Below are positions 11,428-37,002 of a stretch of 64,000 nt of DNA, piece by piece. Each line of letters opens with the position of its first letter. Position 1 is the stretch's first letter. The position numbers and the translations under genes were made by a program. The DNA lies in contig CAVQMQ010000008.1 of assembly GCA_963713645.1 (NCBI GenBank), positions 6,473-70,472 of the forward strand, written 5' to 3'. This DNA comes from an uncultured Acidobacteriaceae bacterium. GTDB lineage: Bacteria; Acidobacteriota; Terriglobia; Terriglobales; Acidobacteriaceae. The notes below the pieces were generated by a model, which was given only the letters and a program-made list of their open reading frames with translations, made no database searches and was not told the DNA's origin.

Positions 11428-11530
11428 TTGGTTGCGCTCCCTGAGCGGCGGTGTCTTCCGGATGCCAGAAAAATCCCCCGCCAAAGATTTAAGGATAACG
11501 CGGGCGGCTTTCTTGCGTATCCTTATCCGC

Positions 11531-13723: not shown

Positions 13724-13803
13724 CTAAAAGCAGAAATGGATTGACCCGCAGAGGGAAATTCCGGCGTGATCTCATGTCTTTACCGATTACTTCCGATAAG
13801 GGG

Positions 13804-21690: not shown

Positions 21691-22989
21691 CTATTGGCTT
21701 GGCGGCTTGGCGGAAGAGCTGTCCTTCGCCGCAGGAGCGGCGTCTGCGGGTTTGTCAGGCGGAGCAGGCGCGGCTGCTTTCTGTCTGCGGTCGGCGGCCT
21801 TCTGCAACTCTTCGTCCTGCTTTTCTTTTTCCGCGGCGGCCTGCGCGTCGGTCACATAGCGGAAGACCTGCAACCGTCCGGGAAATTGCTCGGTGGTGAA
21901 GACCCGGTTGTACTTGTCGATCGCTACACCCACCAGGGCTTTGAACTGGCCGGGCAACTCGCCGTGTCCCTGGCCGATATATGTGAGCAACTGGCCATCG
22001 CGGTTGAAGACCTGAAGGCGGTCTTCCATCTCGTCGGCCACCCAGATATGCCCGTCGCCATCAACAGCGATACCCTTGGGCCGCGCGAAGCATCCGGGGC
22101 CATCGCCATGCTTGCCGAAGAGGCTGATGAAGTTGCCGTCGGCATCGAAGATCTCGACGCGATTGTTCAGCGTGTCGGTCACGTAGACATTGCCGTCCTG
22201 ATCGAGAGCCACGCCCTGCGGCGCGCCGAAGTCGCCTGGGCTGGTAAGGAAGTGATTCTTGCCGCCGGTGCCGATGCGCCTGAGCAGCTTGAGTGTGTCC
22301 GCGTCGTAGACGATGACCTGGTCCTGCTGAGTATCTACGACGTAGAGAAAACGGTTGGCTGTATCTATGGCCAGGCCGACCGGGTCTTCGAGGCCCTCGG
22401 TGATCTGGCCTTCAACTTCATGTTTCTTGTTGAAGATCATCACACGGTGCATCTTGCCGTCAGAGACAAAGAGGCGGTCATCGTCATCGATGGCCAAACC
22501 GTTGATCCAGCCGAAGTGAGCCTCGTAGCCGTTACGAATCATCTGTACGTCACGTGTAACCGTGTTGAAGATGAAAACAGCGCCCACCTTTTGATCGGCC
22601 ACATAGACCAGGCCATTGGAGTCGATGGCAATGCCGTAGGGGCCGATAAGTTGGAAGGGAAAGGTCTTGGGATTAAATTTTTCAGCCTGCGATTGCCCGC
22701 CCGCCAGGCGGTCCATCCAGGTGGCCTTGGGTTTGTCGTTGGCTGCCGGGGTGTAATCGATCTTTGCGCCGGCATAGTAGTCGAGCCAGCGAACGCGGGC
22801 GATGTTGGGCGGGCTGGGCCAGACTAGCTTGGAGGGGTCAAAGGGGAATTTGCGCGGACCGACAGCGGGCGCAGGAGTGTCGGCCTTTTTCTTCGCTGCG
22901 CTGGCGGGAAAAGGAAGGGTGAGCGAGAGCAGCAGGAAGGCAGCGAGCAGCCTGGGAGCGCGAGGCGAATTCGTGAATAAGTAGTTCAT
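21691..22989 (-). CDS. secreted NHL-repeat beta-propeller protein
   Basis: Signal peptide, WPSPPNIARVRW leader, repeated PxGxAxD...YVxD...RV.IF units. Confidence 0.9.
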   Translation of the reverse strand: MNYLFTNSPRAPRLLAAFLLLSLTLPFPASAAKKKADTPAPAVGPRKFPFDPSKLVWPSPPNIARVRWLDYYAGAKIDYTPAANDKPKATWMDRLAGGQSQAEKFNPKTFPFQLIGPYGIAIDSNGLVYVADQKVGAVFIFNTVTRDVQMIRNGYEAHFGWINGLAIDDDDRLFVSDGKMHRVMIFNKKHEVEGQITEGLEDPVGLAIDTANRFLYVVDTQQDQVIVYDADTLKLLRRIGTGGKNHFLTSPGDFGAPQGVALDQDGNVYVTDTLNNRVEIFDADGNFISLFGKHGDGPGCFARPKGIAVDGDGHIWVADEMEDRLQVFNRDGQLLTYIGQGHGELPGQFKALVGVAIDKYNRVFTTEQFPGRLQVFRYVTDAQAAAEKEKQDEELQKAADRRQKAAAPAPPDKPADAAPAAKDSSSAKPPSQ

Positions 22990-23001: not shown

Positions 23002-24496
23002 TTACTTCTCCGGGGAAGTTGTTTCTTTCATATTCAGGCGGTTCTTGTGGCAGTTGTCGCAGAAGGCCATGTTGTTTTCCTGGTCTTTTACCAACAGGTC
23101 AGCGTGCGATGAGGCATGCGCTTGATGGCAACTGAGGCAACTGAGCGGCGTCTTCACTTTTGTTTGATTCGTCGGGTCCATCACGTCCGAGACAGGATGG
23201 TACTCGACTGGGTGCCCGAGGCCAAAGCGCAAAGGCAGAATAGCCACCTTGTTCTTCTTGTAGTAATCGTCAGGAAGCTTGACCGTGCCGTTAAAGATCG
23301 TCAGCAGATGCTGGTCCGCGACAGGCTGCGGAGCCGAATCCGGTCCGTGGCACTCAAGGCAAAGCGCATTGCCCTTGGCGCGCAGCAGGTGATCGTTGTC
23401 GCCGCCATGCGGAGTGTGGCAAGTTGCGCAGCCTTGCGTAAAGGCGGGCTGATGGTGGAACGGCTTTTTGCCCAGGTCGCCGATGTCGGTGTGGCAGCCG
23501 GTGCAGATGCTCACCGGATCTGTCTTGGGCAGGCCGGGTTCGTTGCTGGCGTGCGGGCTGTGGCAATCGGTGCAGTCGCCTGCCGCGCCGGGGTGCGGCA
23601 CTTTCGCGGAGTCGATGAGCTTGGCTTTGTCGTCGTGGCAGGTAACGCAGAGTGCTTTCACGTCGGTCTGCGTCAGCACGACTTTTCCGTCTTTGGCCGG
23701 CGCGTGGCACATTTCGCAGCTCTTTGCCTCAAAGGGCACATGCTGAAACTTGGCCATCAGCTTGGGCGCGGCGGATTGATGCGGGTCGTGGCACTCCAGG
23801 CAGTTGGCCGTGGCGAAGGGCTGATTCTGATGGGCCTTGGCCAGCTCTGGATCTTTCGCATCGTGGCAATCGAGGCAGAGCGCGGGGGCGGCTTTGGTCA
23901 AATGGAAGCGGTTCTCAACTGTCGGCTCAGCGCCGGTTTTGTGGGTCAGGTGGCAGGCGTCGCAGCCTGCTTCGAGCGCTGCATGGCGGCTGCCCTTCTC
24001 CGGCACATTCAGCCCGGTCTTGTGGCAACTGAGGCAGAGGTTTTCTTTCTCACTGCCCGACATCGGCTTGAGCAACTGATTCTTGTTGTCGCTGACGTGG
24101 GGATCGTGGCAGGTGAGGCAGTCGCGCACCGCCGGCGGATGGACTGTGCCTTTGATGTCGGCGGCTTTTTTATCCGCGTGGCAACTGATGCAGAGCGATA
24201 CCGGCGTCGCGGTGATCAGCTTGACTCGGGTGACATCTTTATTGACGCGGACCTCATGGCAACCGAGGCAGCCGGCGGCCATCGCCGAGTGAACTGACTT
24301 GCCCTTGCTCTTGTCGTCGTGGCACTCCACGCATTTGGCGGCGTCGGTTCTTGGGGTCGAGCGGCACGGGATGAACGGCGGCCGAGGCGCGCGCGGCCAG
24401 CATCGCAAAGAAAATGGCCCAAAGAAAAATCCGCGGCGTGTGACAGCCGGACTTGGCGACCGTTCGGCACCACGCGCGATGAGGAACCAACTGCAT
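23002..24496 (-). CDS. 16-heme c-type cytochrome (paired-CxxCH type); N-terminus separated by a +1 frameshift near 24348
   Basis: 16 CxxCH counted. The signal peptide (IFLWAIFFAMLAARASA-AVHPVPLDPK) lies in another frame from ATG 24496 (GGAG RBS); deleting one base in AAGAACCGAC gives ...PK-TDAAKCVECH. Confidence 0.88.
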
Positions 24497-24782: not shown

Positions 24783-24967
24783 GTGCCGACCTTACCGGAG
24801 GGCGCTGTGGTGATCCCAACGCGGGAATCACCACAGCGCTGAACCAAAACGAAAGCGGCTGGAATTCTTAGGTAACGCCGACGCGTGCGGTTGCCAACGA
24901 AGAAGCAGAAACAGAAGCCGATCAGTTGAGGATGCAACCGACTCGCAGGTCAGGAGCGTTTTCCTCA

Positions 24968-25831
24968 ATGATTCGAATTATTTTGTTGGTCCTGCTGTTT
25001 CTTGCTACCGCAAGCTTCGCCCCGGCGCAGATCGTGTCGGCGACGACCGATGTGCTGGGCGCGCACCTGAACTATGGCCGGGGTTGCGCGGCCTGCCATG
25101 CTCCGCACAGCGGATCGGAAGGCAACGGCAACACAAAAAAAGCCGACTCCGCTTCCGGCAATTCTATGCTCTGGGGCGAGGATGTGAGCAGCCTCTACGG
25201 CAAGACCATCACTACAGGCGGAGGCAAATTTGTCGAGACGCTGCCCACCAGCATGTCGGCCACTACGCCGGATGTGAACGGAATGCTGACCTGCCTCAGT
25301 TGCCACGACGGCAACTATGCGTCGAGCGCGATGATGAAGAACCAGCTCTATGAGACGCTGCCCGCGAGTTACGGAACGCATAACACCGTGCCCACACTGC
25401 TGGGCAATAACAGCACCGGCGCTGGCAATTATCTCAACGAGCATCCAACAGGACTAAGCGCGGTGATCAAGTGCGGCGGCAACGGCTGGGATTGCTCACA
25501 GGCCAATGGCGTGGTGAGCATGAAGGGCGCGAACTCCAGCCAGTTTGTGGCTAACTACGGATTCTTTGTGCAGCCAGGGAGTTATAACAACAGCGCCGTG
25601 GTGGTTTGCACCACCTGCCACAATCCGCACACGATGAATGTGGTGACGGTAACTCACGGAACGAACTCCGGCCTGCCTGCGGGCAACTACGCGACGATGT
25701 TCTTTTTACGCGGCCCCTATAACCCGAAGGATACTAACTCGCAGTCAAACCAGACGGCGCAGTTCTGCCGCCAGTGCCACGGAGATTTGTCGAATGAGAT
25801 GAATGGCAGCACGGCGGGAACGGTGTTTTAG
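24968..25831 (+). CDS. secreted tetraheme cytochrome c, OmcE-like layout (paralog B)
   Basis: Signal peptide; GAH...CAACHAPH...LW...CLSCHDG...LNEHP...CTTCHNPH...FLR...CRQCH; CAGGAG RBS. Confidence 0.88.
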   Translation: MIRIILLVLLFLATASFAPAQIVSATTDVLGAHLNYGRGCAACHAPHSGSEGNGNTKKADSASGNSMLWGEDVSSLYGKTITTGGGKFVETLPTSMSATTPDVNGMLTCLSCHDGNYASSAMMKNQLYETLPASYGTHNTVPTLLGNNSTGAGNYLNEHPTGLSAVIKCGGNGWDCSQANGVVSMKGANSSQFVANYGFFVQPGSYNNSAVVVCTTCHNPHTMNVVTVTHGTNSGLPAGNYATMFFLRGPYNPKDTNSQSNQTAQFCRQCHGDLSNEMNGSTAGTVF

Positions 25832-26017
25832 TGCCCGGATATACTGATTGCGTTCGGCGGATATTAAAGAATGAAAAGCCTGGAGGGTTATGCTTTCTCA
25901 TGTCCAGAAATGCGAGGGGCATAGGATAGCCATTCTTTGTACTCGATTAGGCCTTTGACACTTGCCTCGATGTGGTATTCTATATTCGCCTGCTCTGGCG
26001 ACTCTGCGCGATCAACT

Positions 26018-26173
26018 ATGAATCATCACCGTATTCGTGCGCCTAAAAGGCGCACCAGAGCAGATTTCGTTCATATCCTCGTGCAAGTAAAGCTCTTCGC
26101 TCTTGAGCTTGCGGCGACGATTCTATTCGTTGTATGGGTTTATCGTGAGCTAATCCATGAACTCCGGCGCTGA
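26018..26173 (+). CDS. putative small membrane protein (51 aa)
   Basis: Basic N-terminus then FVHILVQVKLFALELAATILFVVWVY; TTGACA upstream (25955) and a GC hairpin with T-tract downstream. Confidence 0.4.
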   Translation: MNHHRIRAPKRRTRADFVHILVQVKLFALELAATILFVVWVYRELIHELRR

Positions 26174-26299
26174 GTTCTTCTATACGCAGGTGTTCGAGCT
26201 GGACAGGTGTTGGGCGCCCCGGGCCGAGACATTCGGACCTAGGGCACTGGGTATTGGTCTTCAGGCCCGGGCCTTTTTATCGCGGCAGCTGAATCGAAA

Positions 26300-26466
26300 G
26301 GCCCGCGGCTAAAGCAGGGTTGCTGGTGAGGCTGGATTCGGCGGCCTGAAGGCCGCTGCTCCCTCCGACTTTTTCATTATGCATTGATGGATGGTTAATT
26401 TCTTTAATCTGGAGCGCGGAGTTTGTGCTTTCCCATGTCCCCAAAAGCGAGGGACATGGGGCACCC
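26300..26466. repeat. REP-like hairpins
   Basis: GCGGCC-TGAA-GGCCGC near 26341 and TCCCATGTCCC-CAAAAGCGA-GGGACATGGG-GCACCC (26431-26466). Confidence 0.65.
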
Positions 26467-26533
26467 AGCTTCTATGAAAGATTGAGATGTGGTCCACCCG
26501 CCGGGGGTCTGATCGCCGCGCACCGCCTCGATT

Positions 26534-27052
26534 TCAATAGGCGGCAACGGCTTTCTTGACGATCGGCCGGAGCGTATCCAGGTCTGAGTAGGGGGAACTC
26601 ATAAATATAATGCCCTGGCCCTTTGTGAATACCACGAACAACCCCTGCACCCCTTCTTGGAAGTACGCGAACGCGTGGTCGCCGATTCCGCTTTCATCTC
26701 GGGTATGGAGTACCCTGGCGTCTTTCATGGCATGTGCCCGCATGCGTGTGAACGCTTGCTCCGGACTCTCGCCCTTTTCCGCCTGGACTAAGGAAATACT
26801 TAAGTACGCCGGCGGCTTGCCCTTTTCTGGCGCCATGCACATACAGGTGTACATCCTGGGCGTCAGAGTCGGCGGCTTGGAGGCCTTAAGCAGTACCATC
26901 AGATCGGCTGGCTGCACTAAGCCGCAGAGCTTCTTCGACGTTTCGGTCTCAAACTGCGCGCCAGCCGGACTCGCGCTCAGCAGCGCCGCCAGTATCATAT
27001 TCGCTGCGATCCAGCAGCGCCTGTCTTTATGCGAGTGCACTCGATTTTGCAT
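26534..27052 (-). CDS. secreted hypothetical protein (DUF3558-like cysteine pattern)
   Basis: Signal-like ILAALLSASPAGA-Q, LCGLV...TCMC, GIGDHAF. Confidence 0.55.
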   Translation of the reverse strand: MQNRVHSHKDRRCWIAANMILAALLSASPAGAQFETETSKKLCGLVQPADLMVLLKASKPPTLTPRMYTCMCMAPEKGKPPAYLSISLVQAEKGESPEQAFTRMRAHAMKDARVLHTRDESGIGDHAFAYFQEGVQGLFVVFTKGQGIIFMSSPYSDLDTLRPIVKKAVAAY

Positions 27053-27877
27053 CGGAGCTTCCATGGTTTTCACGCGCACCTCTGCGCAATGCAAGTTGCA
27101 TCGGATAGGAACTCGAAGATTATAGCATTTGGCAGGTGGGCGGGTCCCCGCAAGATCGCTTTGTGTAAGGACCGAAACCGTCGCACTCGGCGGCTATCCG
27201 TCGAGAAAAATGAAAGGCAGCGCCCTTCAAACGGACAGCGATCCTGCGACTGCACCTCCGCGCTCGCCGTCTGCAAGAACATCCTCTCTGCGTTATACCT
27301 CAGCGCCCTCAGTGTCTCTGCGTTTGATTTTTCCTAATCCGGCGTAGTCGGAACCAAAGGGGTTGTGGCTATGATGCGGTGTGGACATCGAACTGCTAAC
27401 GGAAGGCGAGTTTAGAATCGGACGCTCGAAAAACCCGTTCCCTGTCGTCAAGAGCTGTGCCCCCTCAGCTCCCCACGGGCTGACCTGCCTCCCACTGGTT
27501 GGAAATTTGGTAGCATTTTGGTAACAAATACCGCCGACTGGGCCGGTTTTGCAGGTTTATCCGTCTCATAAGTCTCATTAGGGTATAAATATACTTGACA
27601 AACCAATGGTGAGGGTTAAAGCGTGACACCGCTTGAAAACACGCTTACCTTTTGGTTCTGCAGCAAATAGGTTTGTCTACGCCGTAGAAATGAGCAAATT
27701 TATGAAGGAACTGCCGGAGCATGTGATAGCTCCACCTACGCACGCGGATGGTGAGTCAAGTATATATATGCCGTTCTAACGAACTGATTTTATTTATTCA
27801 TGCGGATTATGAATCAGTATCTTGTACAGTTCGACGGCGAGTTGTCCCACTCACGATCTTCAGATAGAAGCCGCCCC

Positions 27878-28020
27878 CTACTCCGTCCACGGATCGAGCA
27901 GCTTCACTGGAGTCCCTTGCACATCGCGGATATTCCGCGTAACCAGCGTCAGATCGTGCTGTACGGCGGTTGCTGCCAGCAGCGTGTCCACAAGAGGTCT
28001 TGGCCGCACCCCTGACCAAT
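27878..28020 (-). pseudogene. C-terminal remnant of a PIN-domain (VapC-like) toxin
   Basis: RPRPLVDTLLAATAVQHDLTLVTRNIRDVQGTPVKLLDPW is a PIN C-terminal motif; the N-terminal half is absent and a REP hairpin lies just upstream. Confidence 0.75.
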
Positions 28021-28060
28021 CTCCTATAGCCTGGCGTCGGGATCGGGAAACGTCTGTGGT

Positions 28061-28094
28061 TTCCCAGGTCCCAAAAAGCGGAACCTGGGAGACC
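28061..28094. repeat. REP-like hairpin
   Basis: TTCCCAGGTCC-CAAAAAGC-GGAACCTGGGA-GACC, same family as 26431 and 61798. Confidence 0.65.
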
Positions 28095-28107
28095 ATTTAT
28101 TCCGCGC

Positions 28108-29187
28108 TCAAAAATACGCGCAGGAATCGGTGTATGTTCCTCCGTTGGAGTAGGCGGCTGAGCTTAAGTCCCACTTCAGGCTGATGCCATCTCCCTTTCC
28201 TTCGACCGTTACCGAGACAGAAGCACTTCCAACGAAGGCCACGTCGCCATCTGTTTGAGCAATCGTCCGGCTTGTACTGCCCGTTGTTCCGGTAACGCCC
28301 TTATTGTCATGACCAAAGTGGTATCCAGGCCACCCACTTCCGCTGGAGGTATTGCTGAGAGCAAACGGCTGCGGCTTGCAACTGGTATCGCAGGTAATGC
28401 CGGCCTGCTGCTCCCCCAGACTCAAGGTCCACACGGTAATCCCGTAAATATCCTTACCGGTTGCGTCGTAATGAGCCCATGTATAAGTCAGGCCATAGTC
28501 CTTGGGGTGGCTCGCAAGACCGCATGTCCCCTTTGCTTCAGAGGTGGCGTCAGACGCAGGCTGCCGGGAGGTAGTGGCATTTGCGGGCTGGGTTAGATAT
28601 GTCACCCGCGGCCCCCATCCTTCCGCCTTCAGGCGAAGGCGGGTTTCGACCTTCGTCTGCAGGTAGTCCACGACCGGATCAAGCACCGCGCAGTGATCGA
28701 GTCCGGACCAGCAGAACTCCAGCGCTTCGTGGGAGCGCTGATCTCCGCCGATGGTTGCGCTTACCTGAAGGAGGCGATAGGAACCGTCTTCAAGAGGAAG
28801 CCCGAAGTCGGCGAACCTGTCTGCCTGATCTTCCATGTTGCGTTGCCCGTAGGCCGGATCTTCCGGCACGGCAAAACGGGGATTGCTGAGAATGGTTCCG
28901 GTCTGGTCGGCAAGGATGCGGTACTCGGGCACCGTGATCAACGTGTTAAAAGGCTTGCCTGCAAGGGCCGTCATGTCGCCGGACTCGAGCGTCTCTACGC
29001 TGAAGGAAATCGCTCCGGAGGTTGCAGTGGCGTACTCATTGTAGAGTCCTTCCGCATAATTGGCGACGAGCGGAGGTTGCGTGAAAGCGAGGGTTGGTTT
29101 CAGGGCTTGCTGCGTTCTGGCGATCGGCCCACTGGCCAAAAGTGAGACGAGCAGAATTCCGGTCACGTTCCAATTTGTGCTGTTCAT
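28108..29187 (-). CDS. secreted hypothetical protein (359 aa, 6 Cys)
   Basis: ATG with GAGAGG RBS, signal peptide, Gly/Ser/Thr-rich beta-type C-terminal half; no family recognised. Confidence 0.7.
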   Translation of the reverse strand: MNSTNWNVTGILLVSLLASGPIARTQQALKPTLAFTQPPLVANYAEGLYNEYATATSGAISFSVETLESGDMTALAGKPFNTLITVPEYRILADQTGTILSNPRFAVPEDPAYGQRNMEDQADRFADFGLPLEDGSYRLLQVSATIGGDQRSHEALEFCWSGLDHCAVLDPVVDYLQTKVETRLRLKAEGWGPRVTYLTQPANATTSRQPASDATSEAKGTCGLASHPKDYGLTYTWAHYDATGKDIYGITVWTLSLGEQQAGITCDTSCKPQPFALSNTSSGSGWPGYHFGHDNKGVTGTTGSTSRTIAQTDGDVAFVGSASVSVTVEGKGDGISLKWDLSSAAYSNGGTYTDSCAYF

Positions 29188-29245
29188 AGGAACCTCTCCA
29201 TTTTCGGATTGTGATGGTCACGGATTGTGGGTGGACGCGGATTAC

Positions 29246-29362
29246 TAGAGCGGTTCTCCAATTTCTGTGGAGTAGCTGAAATTGTGCAAGGTGACTTTTT
29301 CTTGAGTAAAAAGTCACTTGAGTACATCAATTCCGCTCTACACCAATTGGAAAACGGCTATA
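29246..29362. mobile_element. MITE-like repeat, copy C
   Basis: TAGAGCGGTTCTCCAATT...GTGACTTTTTC-TTGA-GTAAAAAGTCAC...TCCGCTCTACACCAATTGGAAAACGGCTATA. Confidence 0.75.
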
Positions 29363-29687
29363 GCCGCGCCTTGGGTTCTGAAACCAGGCAACTGCAAAGC
29401 AAGGTTTTTAGTTAATTGCACTACAGATAGGGGAAGATGGAGCAGACACTGCTTTGTTCCCGTGCAGGGCCAATAGGAACGATGCTTCGTGAATCTGGGT
29501 TGCGTTGGCGTGTCAAGCGCTGACTAAGGAGGTCCAGCTAGTCACAGACTGTACCCTGGAAGGTTCTGGATGTCAAGACGGACATTTGTGTGCACAGGGG
29601 CAAATAGGACGCGGTGTCACTCACCATTTAGGCTTAAGCCGTTCTAATCTATGGCTACACTACTCCTTGACTCGCGGTGATAATTTC

Positions 29688-31574
29688 TTATTTTTTTACG
29701 CCGACAATTTTGCGCACGCTGGTTTGCGTGACGGAGCCGTCGGCGTTATGCGCGGCCTGGTGGCAGACCATGACACAGGTGTTGGCGGTGCGGTTGTAGC
29801 TGATGGGCAGGCCGCCGTTCGAGGCCACTACGTTGACATCGAAATTGATCAGCCGCTCACCGGTGATGGTTCCGCTGGTGGCTCCCATGCCGTGAGCGGT
29901 GTGGCACGCAGAGCAACTGAAGCCGGAGTTGATGTGGGTGCTGTGCTGGCTCCAACTGGTGTTTTTGATGATCTGGTTTCCGAGGTCGTGGCATTTGCCG
30001 CAGAGACCGTAAGGTCCGTTGACGCTGAGATCGGGATTGGGAAAGAGATTGTTGATGAGCTGGCCAGGTGCGGCGGCCTGGCTGAACTCGTAGCGGCGTT
30101 CGAGGATATGCGTCCAGCGCGAGCCGTGCGGACCATTGGAGCCAATGCCGCCGAACTCGCGGTTGTCATCGCTGTTGTGGCAGTCGGAGCAGAGAATCTG
30201 CGTACCCATAGCTCGGCCCTGCGTAGCTCCGTCAAGGTTGAGCATATTGGTCAGCAGGCTGGGCTGGGTGAGCGTGCTGTTGTTCGTATGCGTGACCGGA
30301 TGGCTCGATGTGGCCGTGGCCGCGAACTGCGGAATCTGGTTGAGCGGGTCACCGGCTGAGACGGCGCGGACCGGGAAGTAGCCGTAGATGGGCTGCACCT
30401 GCTTGCCCGAGCTTGTGCCGTGGCAGCGCAGGCAGCTTTCATATTGGTTGACGGCGGGGGTGAGGACGGTGATGCCGTCGGTGGCGCTGATGCCCGCCGC
30501 GTCTTTTTGCGAAACGCGAATCGCCGGAGCGGGCGGGAATGTGCCGACAACCTCGGACCCGTGGGCGCTGTGGCAATCGACGCAGGTGGCGTGGCGGTTG
30601 TTGTTGAGCAGCGTGCTCTCGGCGGCGTCGTGCGGGTTGGCCGAGGTGGGGAAGGGATGGCCCACCTTTGGCGTGGCGTACTCGGCAAAGACGTTGGCGT
30701 AGGTGGGCATCGGCGAGACGTTCGCGCCATTGTGGCAGGCGATGCAGTCCTGCTCGTTCGGTCCGCGCAAAATGCGCGATGCCCCGGCTGCATTGTGTGG
30801 CGCGTGGCAGGCGATGCAAGCTGCTCCGGCGACGGCTGGATAGCTGCCCAGCAACGCGGTTGGAGAAATTTTATCGGTCGAAAGAGCATGGGCGCTGATG
30901 GCCCAGTCAGCGAGCGGGTTGACGTGGCCGCTCAACTGGCGGGTGGGGTCGTGACAAGCGAGGCAAAGCTGGCCGCTGGAGCTATCTTTTACGAGAAAGT
31001 TCAGCGAGACAGTGTCTTTGGCCTGGACGTGGGGATTGTGGCAAGAGGAGCACTCGACATTGCCCTTGATCAGCTTGACCGCGCCGGTGGGGTCGGCGGT
31101 TTTGCCGCCGGCGGCAAGCGTTGCAACGAGGTCGATATTGTCTTTGAGAGGCGTGACCAGGCTGAAGGGGTGTGAGTTCTGCAGGTTGCTGCCAAAAACA
31201 TCCGTGGAGTACATCGATCCATGCGTGGTGACTTGGCCGTAGACCACCGTAGTGCCAAGAGCAACGGTACCGTCGTGGCAACTGAGGCACTGATTGCTGT
31301 CAGCGCCGAGAGTAGGCTGGCGGCTTTTATTTGTTTCAGTATCGCTGCTGTAGACGGAGTAGGTCTGCGTGGTGAGCTTCTGGTTCCACAGTCCGCGATT
31401 GAGTCCTGAGTGGGGCGCGTGGCAGTAAGCGCAGGCATCGGGGCGCGCGCCGGTGATGGGCGACTTGCTGCCGGGGCCGAAGCTATGCATGCCCATCACG
31501 TCGCCGGAGATTTGCGCGGAGAGCGCGCTGGCGGAAGCAAGAAGCAAAAAAGAGCAAAGAAACCGGAGGTTCAC
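29688..31574 (-). CDS. secreted 12-heme cytochrome c with an N-terminal OmcE-like tetraheme module
   Basis: Minus strand confirmed from the sequence (GTG at 31574, TAA at 29688-29690). 11 CxxCH plus a terminal CVMVCH; start overlaps the upstream NHL stop (GTGA). Confidence 0.9.
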   Translation of the reverse strand: MNLRFLCSFLLLASASALSAQISGDVMGMHSFGPGSKSPITGARPDACAYCHAPHSGLNRGLWNQKLTTQTYSVYSSDTETNKSRQPTLGADSNQCLSCHDGTVALGTTVVYGQVTTHGSMYSTDVFGSNLQNSHPFSLVTPLKDNIDLVATLAAGGKTADPTGAVKLIKGNVECSSCHNPHVQAKDTVSLNFLVKDSSSGQLCLACHDPTRQLSGHVNPLADWAISAHALSTDKISPTALLGSYPAVAGAACIACHAPHNAAGASRILRGPNEQDCIACHNGANVSPMPTYANVFAEYATPKVGHPFPTSANPHDAAESTLLNNNRHATCVDCHSAHGSEVVGTFPPAPAIRVSQKDAAGISATDGITVLTPAVNQYESCLRCHGTSSGKQVQPIYGYFPVRAVSAGDPLNQIPQFAATATSSHPVTHTNNSTLTQPSLLTNMLNLDGATQGRAMGTQILCSDCHNSDDNREFGGIGSNGPHGSRWTHILERRYEFSQAAAPGQLINNLFPNPDLSVNGPYGLCGKCHDLGNQIIKNTSWSQHSTHINSGFSCSACHTAHGMGATSGTITGERLINFDVNVVASNGGLPISYNRTANTCVMVCHQAAHNADGSVTQTSVRKIVGVKK

Positions 31575-32641
31575 CTGGTTCCTCCGGCAGCGGATTTTTT
31601 CAGAGCCGCGTATTGAAAGACCTGAACGCGGCGATTAAACGAATCGACGACGAAGACGTGATCGGATGAATCGATGAAGAGGCCGGAGGGCAACTGAAAC
31701 TGGCCGGCGTGGGTTCCTGCTTCGCCGAAGTTATAGAGGAGTTCTCCTTGGCGGTTGAAGACCTGCACCATGCCCCACTGGGCATCGACGATGTAGAGAT
31801 CGCCTTCAGAGTCCGCGCTGACGGCTTTGGGGCGGAAGATTGCGCCGGGCGAGTCGCCGAGCTTGCCAATGGCGTACTGGAATGCGCCGGAGCGGTCGAA
31901 GACCTGGATGCGGAAGTTCATGGCATCGACGACGATGAGGTTGGGTCCGTCGAGGCGCAACTCGGTGGGGAGATTGAATTCGCCGTCGGCCTGGCCGGAT
32001 TTGCCGATGGTCTGAAGGACGCGGCCTTCCATGTCGAGAACATAGACCTGGTCGCGCAGCGTGTCCGTCACATAGATGCGCTGGGCTGCGGAGTCAACGG
32101 CGATGCCAGTGGGACGCTTGAAAAAACCTTCGCCTTTGACGCTCCCGAGGACGCGGAGGAATTTGCCGCTGGGTGCGAAGACGAAGATCTTGCCCGCGTC
32201 GGAGTCAGTGACATAGATATTGTCCTGGGCATCGACGGCGATGCACTGCGGGGTGCGCATCGGGTTTTTGTCTTTCTCGTTGCGCTCGATGAATTTGTAT
32301 TTGCGCTCGGTGAAGTCGAAGATATGCACGCCCTCTGCGCCAGGATCGGTGACAAGGATGCGGCCGTGGGAGTCAACGGCGATGCTGTAGGGGCGGACGA
32401 GAGAGTGATAATCGGGCGCGCCGGCGATCACATCAACGAGCTTGTTCCAGAAGCCGCGATTGGGCTTGACTTCAAACTCAGAGCTGAAATTGCGCTGCCA
32501 GGTGAGCTTGCGGCCGCCATCGAGCGACATCTCCCACTGCTCGGGCGTTGTGGCGTGGGGCTTGTTTGCCGCGGTTGCGCAGAGCGGAGTGAGCGCGATG
32601 ACGGCCAGCAACAGGGCCGCGCGCTGAGGTTCCCGCCGCAT
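31571..32641 (-). CDS. secreted NHL-repeat beta-propeller protein
   Basis: Signal peptide; RPYSIAVD, RPTGIAVD, LPTELRLD, RPKAVSAD, LPSGLFID repeats; ATG 5 nt after the barrel stop. Confidence 0.9.
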   Translation of the reverse strand: MRREPQRAALLLAVIALTPLCATAANKPHATTPEQWEMSLDGGRKLTWQRNFSSEFEVKPNRGFWNKLVDVIAGAPDYHSLVRPYSIAVDSHGRILVTDPGAEGVHIFDFTERKYKFIERNEKDKNPMRTPQCIAVDAQDNIYVTDSDAGKIFVFAPSGKFLRVLGSVKGEGFFKRPTGIAVDSAAQRIYVTDTLRDQVYVLDMEGRVLQTIGKSGQADGEFNLPTELRLDGPNLIVVDAMNFRIQVFDRSGAFQYAIGKLGDSPGAIFRPKAVSADSEGDLYIVDAQWGMVQVFNRQGELLYNFGEAGTHAGQFQLPSGLFIDSSDHVFVVDSFNRRVQVFQYAALKKSAAGGTR

Positions 32642-32646
32642 CGCTC

Positions 32647-34500
32647 TCAGAAGAAGTTGAACCAACGCGAGACTCCGATATAGAACGAGGATACAACCTG
32701 CGGCGCTGTGCCGGAGGTGCTAAAGCCCTGCTCGATGCGGGCGAAACCGCTGTTGAAATTCAACTTGCGGAATTGGTACTGCACCAGGGTATTGAACTGG
32801 TTGCTCTGGTTGGTGGAGGAGATCGAGTTGCTGAATGTATTGCTGAGGGATTTGGAATAGGCCGCCGCGATGACGAATTTCTTCACCGGCGTGCTCGATA
32901 GTCCAATGGAATAACTGTTGCCGCCGAAGAGGCTGACCAGATCAGAGTCGCTGGTCGTCGTGCCAACCGGAACTGGCACCAGCCCGGAGCCGGTTTCAAG
33001 AGCCTGTCCGCTGGCTTTGGAGTAGCTGCCAGTAGCGGTGATCAGCGGTCCATAGCCGATGCTGGCGTTGTAACTCTGGCTGCTGTTGGCGGTGCCTGCA
33101 TCTTCAGTCAAACCTGTGCGCGAGGCTCCCGCGCCGGCGCTCACGTTGAATTTTCCCCAGCGGCGGCGGGCATTGGCCGAGTAGTTATAGAAGGAGTTCG
33201 TATAGGTGACGAGCAGAGTCTGAACATTCTGGGCGTAGCCGAAGGAGCCGTTGACCTGCCAGCCAAGAAGCTGCTTGGAGTAGTTTTCCGTGGTTGAAAA
33301 TCCCAGGGAGTTTTCTCCGGTTTTTTCGGCGGTATTTTCAGTCACCGTCATTGCCGCGTTGAAGGTGCCGTCGAGCAGCGCATAAGCGTAGGTTGCGCTT
33401 GCGCCGTAGGATTGCACGCCGTAGTCTTGGCCGAGGTAGGATTGGGAGCGGCGTTCGGCGAAGACAGACCCCTGCAGATCGGCGAGCGGAGCGTAACTCG
33501 CTACCGCCAGCAGATCGAGCGAGTTGGAGGACTGGTCTGAATCTGTTCCGGAGACCACGCCGCCAGCCGCGACGACGGACTGCTCCAATTGCCCGGCGAG
33601 ATTGTCAGAGTAATTCGCGCTGACCGAGACGGTGAGCTTGCCGGCGGGATGCACGGCAGCGAGGGCGTTCATCATGTCAATGGTTCCGCTAGAGCCTGCG
33701 CCGAGGTATTCGCTGTTCCAACTGGAGCGGTTGATGCCGGCGGAGACTGAGCCTTTGAGGGGCAGAACATGCGAGACATTGAAGCCGAGGGCGCTGCTGC
33801 TGGACTTAGATTCTGAATCCGCTTCGCCGGAGACGACTTCGGGGATGAGCGCATGGCCGCCGCCGAGGGAATAATAGGCGCCCATGACGAAGCCCGCGTA
33901 TTTATAGCCGGAGTGCAGGTTGAGGGAATGGAATGCGTTTTGTCCCTGATCGCTGGTTCCGTAGACGGAATACTGGCTCGAGCCCATCTGGAATCCGGCG
34001 GAAAAACTTGGCGCGTCTGGGAGGTTCTCGCTCCAGTTGAAGCCGAAGGTATCGCTGTTGCCGTGGGTGACGTAATTGGCCATGCCGGGCACGGCGTAGT
34101 TGCCCTCGCTGTTGTAGGCCTTGGAATAGTTGATGGAACCGGGGAAGCGGCTGCCGCCGAAGATGTTGGCGGAGGCATCGATGCCACTGGCATCGGAGAT
34201 GGACTGGAAGTTGGAATTGGCCCGCGATTGATTCAGGTAGAGACCGACATTGAAGGAAAGAAAATTCGGGTTGTAATAGGAGCCGTTGAAATTGGCTGCT
34301 CCGCCGACGGTCCAGGTATGATCGGAAGCCGTCTGATTGCCGTAATCGGCGGTATAACCCGGCGCAATCGTGCCACTCAGGTCGGTGCTGAAGTCGCCGA
34401 ATTTGATTTGTGCGCTGGCCGGAAAAGCGAGCAGCAGAAACCCAGCCAGCAGGAAAGATGCTGCGGGCCAGGAATTCGTTGCTGTGCGACTGCTGTGCAT
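32647..34500 (-). CDS. outer-membrane beta-barrel protein (617 aa)
   Basis: Signal peptide, many alternating-hydrophobic Ser/Gly/Tyr-rich strands, no Cys, C-terminal aromatic signature IGVSRWFNFF. Confidence 0.82.
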   Translation of the reverse strand: MHSSRTATNSWPAASFLLAGFLLLAFPASAQIKFGDFSTDLSGTIAPGYTADYGNQTASDHTWTVGGAANFNGSYYNPNFLSFNVGLYLNQSRANSNFQSISDASGIDASANIFGGSRFPGSINYSKAYNSEGNYAVPGMANYVTHGNSDTFGFNWSENLPDAPSFSAGFQMGSSQYSVYGTSDQGQNAFHSLNLHSGYKYAGFVMGAYYSLGGGHALIPEVVSGEADSESKSSSSALGFNVSHVLPLKGSVSAGINRSSWNSEYLGAGSSGTIDMMNALAAVHPAGKLTVSVSANYSDNLAGQLEQSVVAAGGVVSGTDSDQSSNSLDLLAVASYAPLADLQGSVFAERRSQSYLGQDYGVQSYGASATYAYALLDGTFNAAMTVTENTAEKTGENSLGFSTTENYSKQLLGWQVNGSFGYAQNVQTLLVTYTNSFYNYSANARRRWGKFNVSAGAGASRTGLTEDAGTANSSQSYNASIGYGPLITATGSYSKASGQALETGSGLVPVPVGTTTSDSDLVSLFGGNSYSIGLSSTPVKKFVIAAAYSKSLSNTFSNSISSTNQSNQFNTLVQYQFRKLNFNSGFARIEQGFSTSGTAPQVVSSFYIGVSRWFNFF

Positions 34501-34730: not shown

Positions 34731-35756
34731 TTACAGAATCTCGACCTTCGTGCTCTGCCGCAGCTTTTTATCCAGGTCGGCGCGCAGGTCGTTTTTCTTC
34801 TTCTCGTGCAGTTCTTTTTCCAGTTGCGCTTTCACCTCTTCAAATTTCGCTTTGCCTGCCGGGGTGTGCACGTTGAGGTGAACGATGGTGTAGGCCTGAT
34901 CCATCTGGATGAGATCGCTGACATCGCCGGGCTTCATTGCCGCGAGAGCCTTGATCACCTGCGGGGCAAGCTGGTCAACAGGAAGAGGCTTATGCTGGCC
35001 CATCATTACGCGGTAATCGTCGTCAGAGAGCTTCTCGGCGAGCAGGCCAAATTCCTCCGCTGTCTTTGCGGCTTTCGCTTGTTGCAGCGCCTGCTCGGCG
35101 CGCTTGCGGCCTTCCTTCGACTGATCGGCGGTGGCGTTTGGGGGAGGGAGAACGGAAATCGTCTGGAAGGTGTAGGACTCGGGGTGCTGGAATCGGGATG
35201 GATTCTTTTCGTAGTAAGCCCGCAGTTCTTCCGGCGTGACACTGCTCCTGCTTTCTACTTCAATTTTCAGAAAGGCTTCAATCAGCAGCGAGCGGCGAAT
35301 CTTCTCTTCGAGCAATTTTTCAGAACCGTGAAAGTCGGCCTGCAGGGATGCGTTGAATTCTTCGGGGGTTGCGTATTGCTTGCGGAAATCCTCTTCGGCA
35401 TGTTGCAGCTTCGCTGCGGGCACGGTCATCTTGCGGCGCTGCGCTTCCTGATAGACCATCTCTTCGAAGACGATCATCTTCAGCGCGCCATCGCGGATCT
35501 GAGATTCCAGTTCTTTGGGGACGCCGTTGTGTTGGCGGGCGTAGGGAAAGATCGCATATTCTTCGCGGACCAGATCGGCATCGGTGAGGACCGTGCCGTT
35601 GACGCGCGCCACGGGCTTATCCGCGATCTGCGTGAGCGCATTCGGCTGCTGTGTAGCTTGCTGCTTGAGGACGGTTGGTGCGTGAGAGGCCACCTGTGCG
35701 TCGGCAGCGGTGAGTGCCAGCAGAAGGAATCCGCAAGTTGTGAGTTTGTGCATCAT
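34731..35756 (-). CDS. SurA/PrsA-like peptidylprolyl isomerase (parvulin) chaperone
   Basis: Signal peptide, KPVARVNG, SurA-N-like helices, YYEKN..RF, F..LA..LSDD, KPGDVSDLI. Confidence 0.85.
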   Translation of the reverse strand: MMHKLTTCGFLLLALTAADAQVASHAPTVLKQQATQQPNALTQIADKPVARVNGTVLTDADLVREEYAIFPYARQHNGVPKELESQIRDGALKMIVFEEMVYQEAQRRKMTVPAAKLQHAEEDFRKQYATPEEFNASLQADFHGSEKLLEEKIRRSLLIEAFLKIEVESRSSVTPEELRAYYEKNPSRFQHPESYTFQTISVLPPPNATADQSKEGRKRAEQALQQAKAAKTAEEFGLLAEKLSDDDYRVMMGQHKPLPVDQLAPQVIKALAAMKPGDVSDLIQMDQAYTIVHLNVHTPAGKAKFEEVKAQLEKELHEKKKNDLRADLDKKLRQSTKVEIL

Positions 35757-35795: not shown

Positions 35796-35826
35796 AAAAA
35801 AATGGGGAGGGAAACTGCCCCTCCCC
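35796..35826 (-). terminator. intrinsic terminator directly after tetraheme paralog A
   Basis: Minus strand GGGGAGGG(G)-CAGTTT-CCCTCCCC-A-TTTTTTT, 16 nt after the stop codon. Confidence 0.8.
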
Positions 35827-35842: not shown

Positions 35843-36712
35843 TTAGAAGGTTGTGACAGCGGTGCTGCCGTTCATTTCGTTGGACTCGCCACCGTGGCAC
35901 TGGCGGCAGAACTGCGCGGTCTGGTTGCTGTTCGCAGTGCCGCTGGCCGGGTTGTAGGGTCCGCGCAGGAAGAACATGGTCGCGTAGTTGCCGCTGGTCA
36001 GGCCGGACTTCGGTCCGTTGGTGACCTTGACCACGTTCATCAAGTGCTGGTTGTGGCAGGTGGTGCAAACCACAACGGGCTGGTTGTTATAGGTGCCAGG
36101 CGAGACAAAGAATCCGTAGTTGGTGACGAAGAGGCTGGAGCCCGCTCCGTTCATCTGCACCGCGCCCGTCGCGCTGATGGTGCAATCCCAGTTGTACTGG
36201 CCGCCGCAACCCATGACGGCATTGAGTCCTACCGGGTGATCGTTGAGGTAGTTGCCGGTGGTGGTGCCGTCGTTGCCGAGCAGGGTTGGGATGGTGTTGG
36301 CGGTACCGTAGGTGGCGGGCAGGGTCTCATAGACCTGGTTCTTCATCATGGCACCCTGCGCGTAGTTGCCGTCGTGGCAGCTGAGGCAGGTGAGCAGGCC
36401 GGAAACGTCAGGCGTGATGGCCGCCATGCTGGTGGGCAGGACTTCTACATCAGCTCCGCCGCCAGTGGTGATGGTTTTGCCGTAGAGGCTACCGACATCC
36501 TCGCCCCAGAGAGCGACGTTGCCCGAGGTTGGATCGGCGGTCTTGGCGTTGCCGTTGCCGTATGCGCCACTATGTGGGGCATGACAGGCAGCGCAGCCGC
36601 GGCCGTAATTGAGATGTGCGCCGAGTACGTCGGTAGACGGCGTGGTGATCTGGGCCGCCGCAAAGCCGGCGCCTGCCAGAAACATCAGGGAGATTAAAGA
36701 AATGCGTTTCAT
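35843..36712 (-). CDS. secreted tetraheme cytochrome c, OmcE-like layout (paralog A)
   Basis: AGGAGG RBS, signal peptide; GAH...CAACHAPH...LW...CLSCHDG...LNDHPV...CTTCHNQH...FLR...CRQCH; exactly 8 His in the mature chain. Confidence 0.9.
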   Translation of the reverse strand: MKRISLISLMFLAGAGFAAAQITTPSTDVLGAHLNYGRGCAACHAPHSGAYGNGNAKTADPTSGNVALWGEDVGSLYGKTITTGGGADVEVLPTSMAAITPDVSGLLTCLSCHDGNYAQGAMMKNQVYETLPATYGTANTIPTLLGNDGTTTGNYLNDHPVGLNAVMGCGGQYNWDCTISATGAVQMNGAGSSLFVTNYGFFVSPGTYNNQPVVVCTTCHNQHLMNVVKVTNGPKSGLTSGNYATMFFLRGPYNPASGTANSNQTAQFCRQCHGGESNEMNGSTAVTTF

Positions 36713-37002
36713 GTAGTAGAGCCTCCTGGTGCTCACTCTTGCTGCTCGACTGAACTGCGATGTTGGCCTCTCCGGCGCTTTCGTCAGTTCAGCCTTCCTG
36801 GACAACATCTGCCTGACCGATGCCGTAGCCGTGAGCGCAAGCGTTCCTGGGCGGCATCCCTAATTGATTGTTGAGGCTAACGTTCTTGTATCCAGCGTGA
36901 TAGCGGGTTGCCGGAACTCGCACTCCTTTGGCAGACTGTCCCGTACCCTTACCTTGGTGTAAGGGCGAGTGAAAATCGGTTACGGAGTGTATCGTTTTCA
37001 TA

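What the first reader, a model, noticed from the sequence alone, without database searches (positions are those of the whole stretch)
29688..31574. OmcE-like module fused to eight further hemes: possible filament base or adaptor
Seen: the first ~200 mature residues (GMH...CAYCHAPH...LWN...YSS...CLSCHDG...LQNSHP...VECSSCHNPH...FL...LCLACH) form a complete OmcE-type tetraheme unit. Seven more CxxCH and a non-canonical terminal CVMVCH (CX3CH) follow. The gene is coupled to the NHL gene (GTGA overlap), which starts 5 nt after the barrel stop. Inference: it could nucleate or anchor the tetraheme filament and wire it through the barrel.
Basis: partly seen in the sequence, partly recalled or inferred. 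Interest (0 to 1): 0.7.

Follow-up and report, generated by a model that had tools for sequence, protein, structure and literature searches.

The report
Twelve-haem cytochrome with OmcE-like head
This gene encodes a secreted 12-haem protein whose first 200 residues are a true relative of the OmcE "nanowire" subunit; it always sits next to a large outer-membrane barrel and a propeller protein, so it is a credible but unproven candidate for the part that connects such wires to the cell.

Summary
Window 29688-31574 (-) encodes a 628-aa Sec-exported cytochrome with 11 CxxCH motifs plus a terminal CVMVCH. Residues 22-215 alone match Geobacter OmcE (PDB 7TFS, E 4.9e-12). A profile of stand-alone OmcE proteins matches them at 2e-34, far better than it matches the window's own two tetrahaems (about 1e-10 and 1e-11).

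All 12 haem motifs, including the CX3CH, are invariant in 47 full-length relatives at 27-52% identity. So are OmcE's four distal histidines.

In 80 loci from at least eight phyla the order barrel-NHL-cyt12 is nearly universal: NHL in 75 of 78 loci and barrel in 68 of 69. An OmcE-like tetrahaem lies nearby in 58 of 60. The barrel models as about 28 strands, and its best structural match is MtrB, the sheath around MtrA.

This is therefore the acidobacterial member of a known but uncharacterised component: one of the "multiheme cytochromes" of minimal omcE clusters, with the same layout as the uet cluster (UetA-PPIase-barrel...NHL-UetJ).

The anchor/adaptor reading is consistent with synteny and homology, but no interaction was tested. 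The tetrahaems have diverged strongly while the head has not, which argues against strict subunit mimicry. Verdict: a new member of a known kind that carries a useful, testable hypothesis.

The parts
29688..31574 (-). cyt12 gene (P0001): 628-aa Sec-exported c-type cytochrome with 12 haem motifs; stop codon at 29688-29690
   Evidence: 100% identical cluster representative and about 80% identical 629-aa homologues named from Terracidiphilus
31512..31574 (-). Signal peptide, residues 1-21 (MNLRFLCSFLLLASASALSAQ). Predicted signal peptidase I site after ALSA, so the invariant His30 lies about 9-10 residues into the mature protein
   Evidence: Sequence read directly. Homologues and the stand-alone tetrahaems have the same layout. 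The cleavage site is inferred, not computed
30930..31511 (-). OmcE-homologous head, residues 22-215: haems 1-4 (C48, C96, C175, C204) and distal His candidates H30, H55, H135 and H182
   Evidence: 7TFS hit at E 4.9e-12; OmcE-family HMM i-E 2.3e-34; hhalign E 1.3e-55; collinear alignment with 7TFS and 20 stand-alone OmcE-like proteins; His conservation 98-100%
29691..30929 (-). C-terminal extension, residues 216-628: haems 5-12. It begins exactly where stand-alone OmcE proteins end, 2-3 residues after haem motif 4
   Evidence: Weak sub-threshold similarity of residues 252-390 to the DmsE/MtrA family TIGR03508 (64 bits against a cut-off of 192)
29760..29777 (-). Terminal CVMVCH (CX3CH), residues 600-605: the presumed 12th haem site, inside a short beta-strand region
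   Evidence: Invariant C600/C604/H605; CX3CH in 54 of 56 representatives and CX4CH in 2; strands 592-617 in the model
31571..32641 (-). NHL beta-propeller gene (NHL_A), translationally coupled to cyt12 by a GTGA overlap. It starts 5 nt after the barrel stop
   Evidence: Pfam NHL 7.9e-23; overlap read; directly upstream of cyt12 in 75 of 78 loci. Lipoprotein status of this copy is uncertain
32647..34500 (-). 617-aa outer-membrane beta-barrel (P0003), about 28 strands, C-terminal WFNFF
   Evidence: No Pfam or NCBIfam hit; AF2 pLDDT 78 with about 28 strands; best PDB match MtrB 6R2Q_B at E 1.1e-10; homologous to the barrels of non-acidobacterial clusters by iterated HMM
34731..35756 (-). SurA-like parvulin peptidyl-prolyl isomerase
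   Evidence: Pfam Rotamase_2 7.9e-21 plus SurA_N domains; conserved between tetrahaem and barrel in the acidobacterial loci
35843..36808 (-). Tetrahaem 1 (ORF of 321 aa; the true start may lie further in): a divergent OmcE-like protein and the presumed major subunit. A strong terminator-like hairpin follows at 35826-35804
   Evidence: Four CxxCH; aligns with the cyt12 head at E 2e-6; OmcE-family HMM 3.9e-12; hairpin
24926..25831 (+). Tetrahaem 2, a paralogue 72% identical to tetrahaem 1
23002..24408 (-). 16-haem cytochrome (cyt16), the second multihaem cytochrome of the cluster
   Evidence: 16 CxxCH; Paired_CXXCH_1 2.7e-63; conserved together with NHL_B in the acidobacterial loci
21691..22989 (-). 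Second NHL beta-propeller (NHL_B), immediately downstream of cyt16
   Evidence: Pfam NHL 5.6e-28; synteny

Best explanation
P0001 is the acidobacterial member of a very widespread, generically annotated family ('cytochrome c3 family protein'), here called cyt12. This family is the constant 12-haem partner in OmcE-type cytochrome-conduit or nanowire gene clusters.

Shown:
- It is Sec-exported and has 12 conserved haem sites.
- Its head (haems 1-4) is homologous to the OmcE filament subunit and keeps OmcE's four distal histidines.
- The polypeptide continues from the exact point where OmcE ends.
- The gene is translationally coupled to an NHL propeller and sits behind a roughly 28-strand, MtrB-like barrel. 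This triad is conserved across at least eight phyla, with an OmcE-like tetrahaem nearby.

Inferred mechanism: barrel, NHL propeller and cyt12 form an outer-membrane porin-cytochrome complex. The 8-haem tail collects electrons on the periplasmic side, inside or below the barrel. The OmcE-like head uses the same haem-stacking and histidine-donating surface that joins OmcE subunits to dock the tetrahaem, whether that is a filament or a short oligomer. On this reading cyt12 is the wire's cell-proximal adaptor. Its own fourth haem would be served by the fused tail (for example the invariant H229) instead of by a neighbouring subunit.
For: Head homology: 7TFS, E 4.9e-12; i-E 2.3e-34; E 1.3e-55; collinear alignment; stand-alone OmcE proteins stop 2-3 residues after haem 4, while cyt12 continues with GW..S.H.

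Conservation: all 12 motifs are invariant. Sixteen non-motif His are 89-100% conserved against the 12 needed for bis-His ligation, so 3-4 are spare. The head is the best-conserved third of the protein: 40.7% mean pairwise identity against 35.8% and 39.1%.

Synteny: NHL 75/78, barrel 68/69, OmcE-like 58/60. In the Desulforhopalus locus L058 the tetrahaem hits both solved OmcE filaments at about 1e-24, and the gene order matches the published minimal omcE cluster (PMC13712944).

Barrel: about 28 strands, top PDB hit MtrB.

Evolutionary rate: head branches are shorter than those of the stand-alone tetrahaems. This fits the published pattern that cytochromes of porin complexes evolve more slowly than surface ones (PMC12977616).

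Literature leads, family identity not verified here: the 12-haem DFE_449 of D. ferrophilus, encoded beside NHL genes, was found in the outer-membrane fraction and likened to MtrA (PMC5815863). UetJ (11 CXXCH, beside NHL, in a cluster with tetrahaem-PPIase-barrel) is highly expressed and predicted to be a bar-shaped haem wire (bioRxiv 10.1101/2022.05.06.490989).
Against: No physical or predicted contact with barrel, NHL or tetrahaem was obtained.

The AF2 head is poorly modelled (pLDDT below 50 for residues 21-63), and Foldseek found no structural neighbour.

At about 50 residues per haem, cyt12 is bulkier than MtrA (about 33). Threading it through a barrel is not assured.

The window's tetrahaems have diverged strongly: a long branch of 2.09, a lost segment after the N-terminal His and about 80 extra residues. 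The head did not co-diverge.

The similarity of the middle and C-terminal thirds to the head is no greater than the similarity of these segments to the unrelated cyt16. The tail therefore cannot be called OmcE-like.

Deletion of GSU0616, a cytochrome of the Geobacter omcE neighbourhood, raised rather than lowered metal reduction (PMC1829397). Its orthology to cyt12 is unknown.

The authors of the latest OmcE study state that no anchor or tip candidate is encoded in omcE operons (PMC13712944).
Confidence: 0.5

Rival explanations
1. Periplasmic feeder only. On this reading cyt12, held by its NHL partner, is a soluble or peripherally bound periplasmic cytochrome. It passes electrons to whatever sits in the barrel, and its OmcE-like head reflects shared ancestry only: OmcE would have arisen by truncation of such a protein, or cyt12 by fusion. 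There would be no direct docking to the filament.
For: The signal peptide looks like a plain signal peptidase I type. Slow evolution is typical of periplasmic components (PMC12977616). GSU0616 and DFE_449 were predicted to be periplasmic (PMC1829397, PMC5815863). The head did not co-diverge with the acidobacterial tetrahaems.
Against: It does not explain why the head keeps all four OmcE distal histidines at 98-100% and is the most conserved third of the protein. It also does not explain the near-obligate adjacency to the barrel rather than to inner-membrane or periplasmic partners. DFE_449 fractionated with the outer membrane (PMC5815863), though its family identity was not verified.
Confidence: 0.22
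2. Extracellular end piece or terminal reductase. On this reading cyt12 is exported through the barrel and forms the distal tip of the wire, or acts as a free surface reductase, as was predicted for UetJ.
For: UetJ was predicted to be extracellular and a haem wire (bioRxiv 10.1101/2022.05.06.490989). The OmcE-like head could cap a filament end just as well distally as proximally.
Against: The family is conserved at 30-35% identity across phyla and has short branches, unlike known surface cytochromes. Translational coupling ties it to the barrel and propeller genes rather than to the subunit gene. A strong terminator-like hairpin separates the subunit gene from the machinery genes.
Confidence: 0.12
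3. Assembly template only. On this reading the head transiently nucleates head-to-tail polymerisation of tetrahaems at the barrel, together with the PPIase and NHL proteins, but is absent from the finished structure and carries no steady-state current.
For: The osc system of OmcS uses a PPIase chaperone, channel-like proteins and a propeller for assembly (as summarised in PMC13194489 and cited in PMC13712944). A PPIase sits in this cluster.
Against: Eight additional invariant haem sites are a costly feature for a pure template. The PPIase is absent from many clusters that do have cyt12.
Confidence: 0.1
4. No wire at all in Acidobacteriota. On this reading the divergent tetrahaems are monomeric surface or periplasmic cytochromes, and the whole cluster is a porin-cytochrome conduit for Fe(III) or humic reduction, or for electron uptake. 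cyt12 would be its MtrA-like core and the head simply its outer end.
For: The window's tetrahaems match the OmcE family only at about 1e-11, carry large insertions and have a C-terminal extension past haem 4 that OmcE lacks. The phyla listed for OmcE nanowire homologues do not include Acidobacteriota (PMC13712944).
Against: The tetrahaems keep the eight-histidine OmcE blueprint. There are two highly similar copies, and a terminator-like hairpin follows copy 1, as expected for an abundant structural subunit. This rival overlaps the best explanation with respect to cyt12 itself.
Confidence: 0.25

Closest known systems
OmcE nanowire subunit of Geobacter sulfurreducens (GSU0618, PDB 7TFS) and of Desulfuromonas soudanensis (PDB 9YUQ)
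   Same: Residues 22-215 are collinear with OmcE. They share four CxxCH at equivalent spacing, the four distal His (the H of KHDLS, CH-x-P-H, DHP and CH-x-x-H), and the LWN, LCLSCHDG and FL motifs.
   Different: OmcE is a stand-alone protein of about 210-230 aa that ends 2-3 residues after haem 4 and polymerises. P0001 continues for 413 more residues with eight further haem sites. No polymerisation is implied.
Minimal omcE gene cluster of Desulfuromonadia (two multihaem cytochromes, two beta-propeller lipoproteins, OmcE, large beta-barrel; PMC13712944)
   Same: The parts list matches: cyt16 and cyt12, two NHL propellers, an OmcE-like tetrahaem and a large barrel. The Desulforhopalus locus L058 shows the canonical order OmcE-NHL-cyt-barrel-NHL-cyt12.
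   Different: The acidobacterial order is cyt16-NHL-tetrahaem-PPIase-barrel-NHL-cyt12. There is a second, inverted tetrahaem copy, a PPIase, and much more divergent tetrahaems. Acidobacteriota is not among the phyla listed. I could not establish which Geobacter gene (GSU0615 or GSU0616) is the cyt12 orthologue.
uet cluster of Candidatus Tenderia electrophaga: UetA tetrahaem, UetB PPIase, UetC barrel, UetH and UetI NHL, UetJ 'undecahaem' (bioRxiv 10.1101/2022.05.06.490989)
   Same: The sequence tetrahaem-PPIase-barrel ... NHL-cytochrome is the same, and the cytochrome has exactly 11 CXXCH. P0001 also has 11 CXXCH, plus the CX3CH that a CXXCH count would miss.
   Different: The uet cluster has three c7 trihaems and a cupredoxin between the barrel and the NHL genes, and it is proposed to work in electron uptake.
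MtrAB and other porin-cytochrome complexes (PDB 6R2Q)
   Same: A large barrel whose best structural match is MtrB is encoded next to a Sec-exported multihaem cytochrome. This suggests the same logic of a cytochrome sheathed by a barrel.
   Different: The barrel has about 28 strands rather than 26. cyt12 scores 64 bits against the 192-bit cut-off of the DmsE/MtrA family, so it is not a member. It is bulkier per haem, there is an obligatory NHL propeller partner, and no MtrC-like lipoprotein cytochrome is present.
osc (omcS-companion) cluster of G. sulfurreducens (Shen et al. 2025, known here only through PMC13194489 and PMC13712944)
   Same: A nanowire subunit gene is accompanied by a PPIase chaperone, channel-like proteins, a propeller-like protein and extra periplasmic multihaem cytochromes (OscI, OscJ).
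   Different: The subunit family (OmcS) is different. Homology of OscI or OscJ to cyt12 was not tested, and the paper itself is not held.
Desulfovibrio ferrophilus IS5 DFE_448-451 cluster (PMC5815863)
   Same: A cytochrome with 12 haem-binding sites (DFE_449) is encoded beside NHL propellers. It was recovered from the outer-membrane fraction and likened to MtrA.
   Different: Family identity with P0001 was not verified. No barrel was described in that paper.

Membership tests
OmcE tetrahaem nanowire subunit family | Four CxxCH plus four conserved distal His in the OmcE order and spacing | tested here: met
   For residues 22-215 only: 7TFS at E 4.9e-12; family HMM i-E 2.3e-34; alignment; His conservation
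OmcE tetrahaem nanowire subunit family | Stand-alone subunit of about 210-250 aa that ends just after haem motif 4 | tested here: not met
   P0001 continues for 413 residues with eight more haem sites. It contains an OmcE-homologous domain but is not an OmcE subunit
OmcE tetrahaem nanowire subunit family | Head-to-tail polymerisation with inter-subunit His-haem ligation | not testable with these tools
   Needs haem-aware multimer modelling or cryo-EM
Multihaem cytochrome of the omcE-type gene cluster (cyt12 / UetJ-like) | Encoded directly after an NHL propeller and a large barrel, with an OmcE-like tetrahaem in the neighbourhood | tested here: met
   Window gene order. Across 80 loci: NHL 75/78, barrel 68/69, tetrahaem 58/60
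Multihaem cytochrome of the omcE-type gene cluster (cyt12 / UetJ-like) | 11 CxxCH plus a terminal CX3CH (rarely CX4CH), with full-length collinearity | tested here: met
   191 clusters at 50% identity with E below 1e-30
Multihaem cytochrome of the omcE-type gene cluster (cyt12 / UetJ-like) | Sequence homology to the named proteins UetJ, DFE_449 or GSU0615/GSU0616 | not tested
   Those sequences could not be fetched. None appeared among the named top hits
DmsE/MtrA decahaem family (TIGR03508) | Score above the curated cut-off of 192.2 bits | tested here: not met
   64.1 bits, partial match to residues 252-390
Porin-cytochrome complex (MtrAB-like) | Large outer-membrane barrel of MtrB-like fold encoded beside the cytochrome | tested here: met
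   AF2 model with about 28 strands; Foldseek top hit 6R2Q_B at E 1.1e-10 and TM 0.48
Porin-cytochrome complex (MtrAB-like) | Cytochrome inserted in the barrel lumen | not testable with these tools
   No complex prediction is available and no model coordinates are returned
Pfam Paired_CXXCH_1 (PF09699) | Score above the gathering threshold of 20.6 bits | tested here: met
   75.1 bits. This is a generic multihaem signature

The most novel reading that the evidence does not exclude
cyt12 is the missing, cluster-encoded base of OmcE-type wires in all phyla that have them. On this reading it is an OmcE subunit whose downstream neighbour has been replaced by a covalently fused 8-haem tail. The tail runs into or through a roughly 28-strand MtrB-like barrel, so one polypeptide both seeds or anchors the filament, through the conserved donor histidine and haem-stacking face of the head, and wires it to the periplasm. 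A corollary is that stand-alone OmcE may have arisen by truncation of a cyt12-like ancestor, or cyt12 by fusion onto OmcE. The latest OmcE paper looked for an anchor with four haems and nine histidines and reported none in the operons (PMC13712944). This candidate is present in practically every operon.
Probability: 0.3. Interest if true: 0.85.

Novelty: new member of a known kind. Interest (0 to 1): 0.5.

Why it matters
How cytochrome nanowires are started, anchored and charged at the cell surface is an openly stated gap (PMC13712944). This analysis shows that one gene, present in practically every OmcE-type cluster and represented by thousands of environmental homologues annotated only as 'cytochrome c3 family protein', carries a bona fide OmcE module at its N-terminus and is locked in synteny with an MtrB-like barrel. 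That yields a concrete, cheap test: head deletions, pull-downs and haem-aware co-folding. The same test applies equally in Geobacter relatives, cable-bacteria relatives, Tenderiales and soil Acidobacteriota. It also places abundant peat and soil Acidobacteriaceae (Terracidiphilus-like) among organisms with a complete OmcE/Uet-type extracellular electron-transfer kit.

Tried and rejected
1. Full-length P0001 against PDB sequences found only a weak hit to the undecahaem 6QVM and no OmcE. Only the isolated head finds 7TFS.

2. Foldseek of the AF2 model (pLDDT 80, pTM 0.80) against PDB gave no match below E 0.7. This is uninformative for coil-rich apo-cytochrome models, and the head is poorly modelled without haem.

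3. I tested the idea that cyt12 is three tandem OmcE-like tetrahaem units, or six di-haem units. hhalign of head against middle gives 98.4% and E 8e-15, with H229, H260, H306 and H338 falling on H30, H55, H135 and H182. The control against the unrelated cyt16 family scores the same (96-98%, E 1e-10 to 1e-14). I therefore rejected it as specific evidence and keep it only as a lead.

4. H118 as a ninth histidine of the head is not conserved.

5. A weak Rieske-like match of residues 573-617 (E 0.23-0.26; Foldseek E about 8) is treated as chance.

6. I tried to tie cyt12 to named Geobacter genes. Two large protein searches returned only generic names and no Geobacter entry among the top 120. The OmcE and osc primary papers are not held.

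7. Lipoprotein status of the NHL partner: the crude lipobox scan was inconclusive. Many acidobacterial copies look like signal peptidase I substrates.

Full report
**What is there.** The ORF at 29688-31574 on the minus strand encodes 628 residues. It starts at a GTG that overlaps the stop of the upstream NHL gene as GTGA, with GGAGGA 7 nt upstream. The NHL gene's ATG (32641) lies 5 nt after the stop of a 617-aa ORF.

A motif scan finds 11 CxxCH and one CVMVCH. Every cysteine outside the signal peptide belongs to one of these 12 motifs.

- The whole protein does not find OmcE in the PDB.
- Residues 22-230 alone hit G. sulfurreducens OmcE (7TFS) at E 4.9e-12, collinear through all four haem motifs.
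- I built a profile from 7TFS and stand-alone OmcE-like proteins taken from related loci. It matches residues 43-209 at i-E 2.3e-34.
- Profile against profile gives E 1.3e-55.
- The alignment shows the shared blueprint: His near the mature N-terminus, CxxCH-x-P-H, LWN, LCLSCHDG, DHP, CxxCH-x-P-H, FL, CxxCH.
- Stand-alone OmcE proteins stop 2-3 residues after the fourth motif. cyt12 continues from exactly that point.

The window's own two tetrahaems are 72% identical to each other, but they match the OmcE profile only at about 1e-10 to 1e-11. They sit on a long branch.

**The family.** An exhaustive search found 2,796 representatives at 50% identity with E below 1e-3, and 191 with E below 1e-30. 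Many of these are full length at 32-54% identity.

In an alignment of 47 full-length members all 12 motifs are invariant, including C600-x3-C604-H605. Of 56 representatives, 54 have CX3CH at the end and 2 have CX4CH. Some also have CX3CH or CX4CH at haem site 6, which shows that these spacings substitute for CxxCH in this family.

Sixteen non-motif histidines are 89-100% conserved. Among them are the four OmcE-equivalent ones (H30, H55, H135, H182) and H229 just after the head. Twelve would suffice for bis-His ligation. The head is the most conserved third of the protein. There is a single copy in the window's genome. Public annotations say only 'cytochrome c3 family protein', and near relatives are named Terracidiphilus.

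**Context.** I fetched 80 loci. They come from Acidobacteriota, Verrucomicrobiota, Planctomycetota, Pseudomonadota (Woeseiaceae, Thioalkalispiraceae and others), Thermodesulfobacteriota (Desulforhopalus), Nitrospirota, Binatia and Kiritimatiellia.

Where the flank suffices:
- an NHL gene lies directly upstream in 75 of 78 loci;
- a barrel lies upstream of that in 68 of 69;
- an OmcE-like cytochrome with 3-5 haems is present in 58 of 60.

The few exceptions are mostly fragmented genes.

Barrels from distant phyla join the acidobacterial ones in an iterated profile, so they form one family. In Desulforhopalus sp. IMCC35007 the order is OmcE-like, NHL, small cytochrome, barrel, NHL, cyt12. Its 217-aa tetrahaem hits both solved OmcE filaments at about 1e-24.

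This is the 'minimal omcE cluster' of the literature: two multihaem cytochromes, two propeller lipoproteins, OmcE and a large barrel (PMC13712944). The acidobacterial order is cyt16-NHL-tetrahaem-PPIase-barrel-NHL-cyt12. This order parallels the uet cluster of Tenderiales, in which UetA (tetrahaem), UetB (PPIase) and UetC (barrel) are followed further on by UetH/UetI (NHL) and UetJ. UetJ is called an undecahaem because it has 11 CXXCH (bioRxiv 10.1101/2022.05.06.490989). The gene is therefore a member of a known, though functionally uncharacterised, component.

**The barrel.** AF2 with a 36-sequence alignment gives an all-beta protein with about 28 strands (pLDDT 78). Its best PDB neighbour is MtrB of the Mtr complex (E 1.1e-10, TM 0.48), ahead of TonB-dependent receptors and ushers. 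By the usual barrel geometry, 28 strands imply a lumen of the order of 35-40 Å. That figure is my estimate, not a computed result.

**Mechanism.** The following points are shown:
- the homology of the head;
- the conservation of the haem sites and histidines;
- the coupling to the NHL gene;
- the barrel-NHL-cyt12 triad;
- the MtrB-like fold of the barrel.

The inference is that the three proteins form an outer-membrane porin-cytochrome complex in which the 8-haem tail takes electrons on the periplasmic side. The head would present the OmcE subunit interface to the tetrahaem. OmcE subunits are joined by a histidine that ligates a haem of the neighbour (PMC9473688, PMC13712944).

A protein made of an OmcE unit fused at its haem-4 end to more haems would have a free donor end and an internally satisfied acceptor end. 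This is close to the 'anchor' that the latest OmcE paper asked for and did not find in the operons (PMC13712944). Which histidine is the donor, and hence the polarity, I could not establish.

**Evidence against, and limits.**
- No interaction was tested.
- The cytochrome model has a poor head, and Foldseek found nothing.
- The head did not co-diverge with the strongly altered acidobacterial tetrahaems.
- In the tree, heads and stand-alone proteins cluster by type, not by lineage. The label needs 2 changes on the tree, and none of 500 shuffles did as well. The split is therefore old, and the two are not being homogenised.
- The idea that the tail consists of two further OmcE-like units failed its control.
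- Links to DFE_449 (outer-membrane fraction, PMC5815863) and to GSU0616 (knock-out with raised metal reduction, PMC1829397) rest on architecture only.

**Earlier notes of this scan.** Notes on the same genome describe the same cluster. Follow-up agents working on other genomes independently listed the 12-haem cytochrome as a possible anchor. I treat these as leads. The claims I rely on were re-tested here. One note's mention of 'Uet' led me to the Tenderiales preprint.

**Verdict.** The gene is a new member of a known kind, and it carries a hypothesis that makes an open question about nanowire anchoring directly testable.

Noticed in passing
window 35804-35826 (-): A strong terminator-like hairpin (9-bp stem with 7 GC pairs, followed by a T7 run) lies 17 nt after the stop of tetrahaem 1 and before the PPIase gene. 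This arrangement would let the subunit gene be expressed far above the downstream machinery genes, as with pilin genes.
   Followed up: no
window 25832-29687: About 3.9 kb separate cyt12 from the inverted tetrahaem 2. In the closest loci (L001-L004, L007) the gap is only 10-200 bp. The extra DNA holds a secreted 359-aa protein (28108-29187, no Pfam or NCBIfam hit, Cys-rich C-terminal half) that has no relative in any of the 80 loci. It looks like an insertion.
   Followed up: partly
window 24926-25831 (+) and 35843-36808 (-): The two tetrahaems are far more diverged from OmcE than the cyt12 head is (family HMM 1e-11 against 2e-34). They lack the roughly 12-residue stretch between the N-terminal His and haem 1, carry about 80 extra residues, and extend about 15 residues past haem 4, ending in Phe. 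Whether they still polymerise is open.
   Followed up: partly
window 29688-30929 (P0001 residues 216-628): The ligand pattern of the head (His, CxxCH-x-P-H, CxxCH, HP, CxxCH-x-P-H, CxxCH) recurs in the middle third and, more loosely, in the last third (H229, H260, H306, H338; H425, H483, H544/H547, H561). The hhalign scores are no better than against the unrelated cyt16, so this remains unproven.
   Followed up: yes
P0204, P0222, P0237, P0254, P0271, P0267, P0270 (family members): In some relatives the sixth haem motif is CX3CH or CX4CH instead of CxxCH. This shows that the spacing is interchangeable at a haem site within this family.
   Followed up: no
L076 (Woeseiaceae) 8255-13810: A tandem duplication NHL-cyt12-NHL-cyt12 lies behind a single barrel. 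The two heads are quite different from each other (tree branches 1.25 and 0.76).
   Followed up: no
window 31571-32641 (-) and acidobacterial NHL_A orthologues: Many acidobacterial NHL_A proteins have AxA-type signal ends (for example ...TPAWA|) rather than a lipobox, unlike the Desulforhopalus copies (LIGGC). The 'propeller lipoprotein' of the published cluster may therefore be a soluble periplasmic protein here.
   Followed up: partly
P0001 residues 573-617 (window 29724-29858): There is a weak sequence resemblance to Rieske box II around the CX3CH (E 0.23-0.26 to PetC chains), in a short beta-hairpin region of the model. This is probably chance.
   Followed up: no
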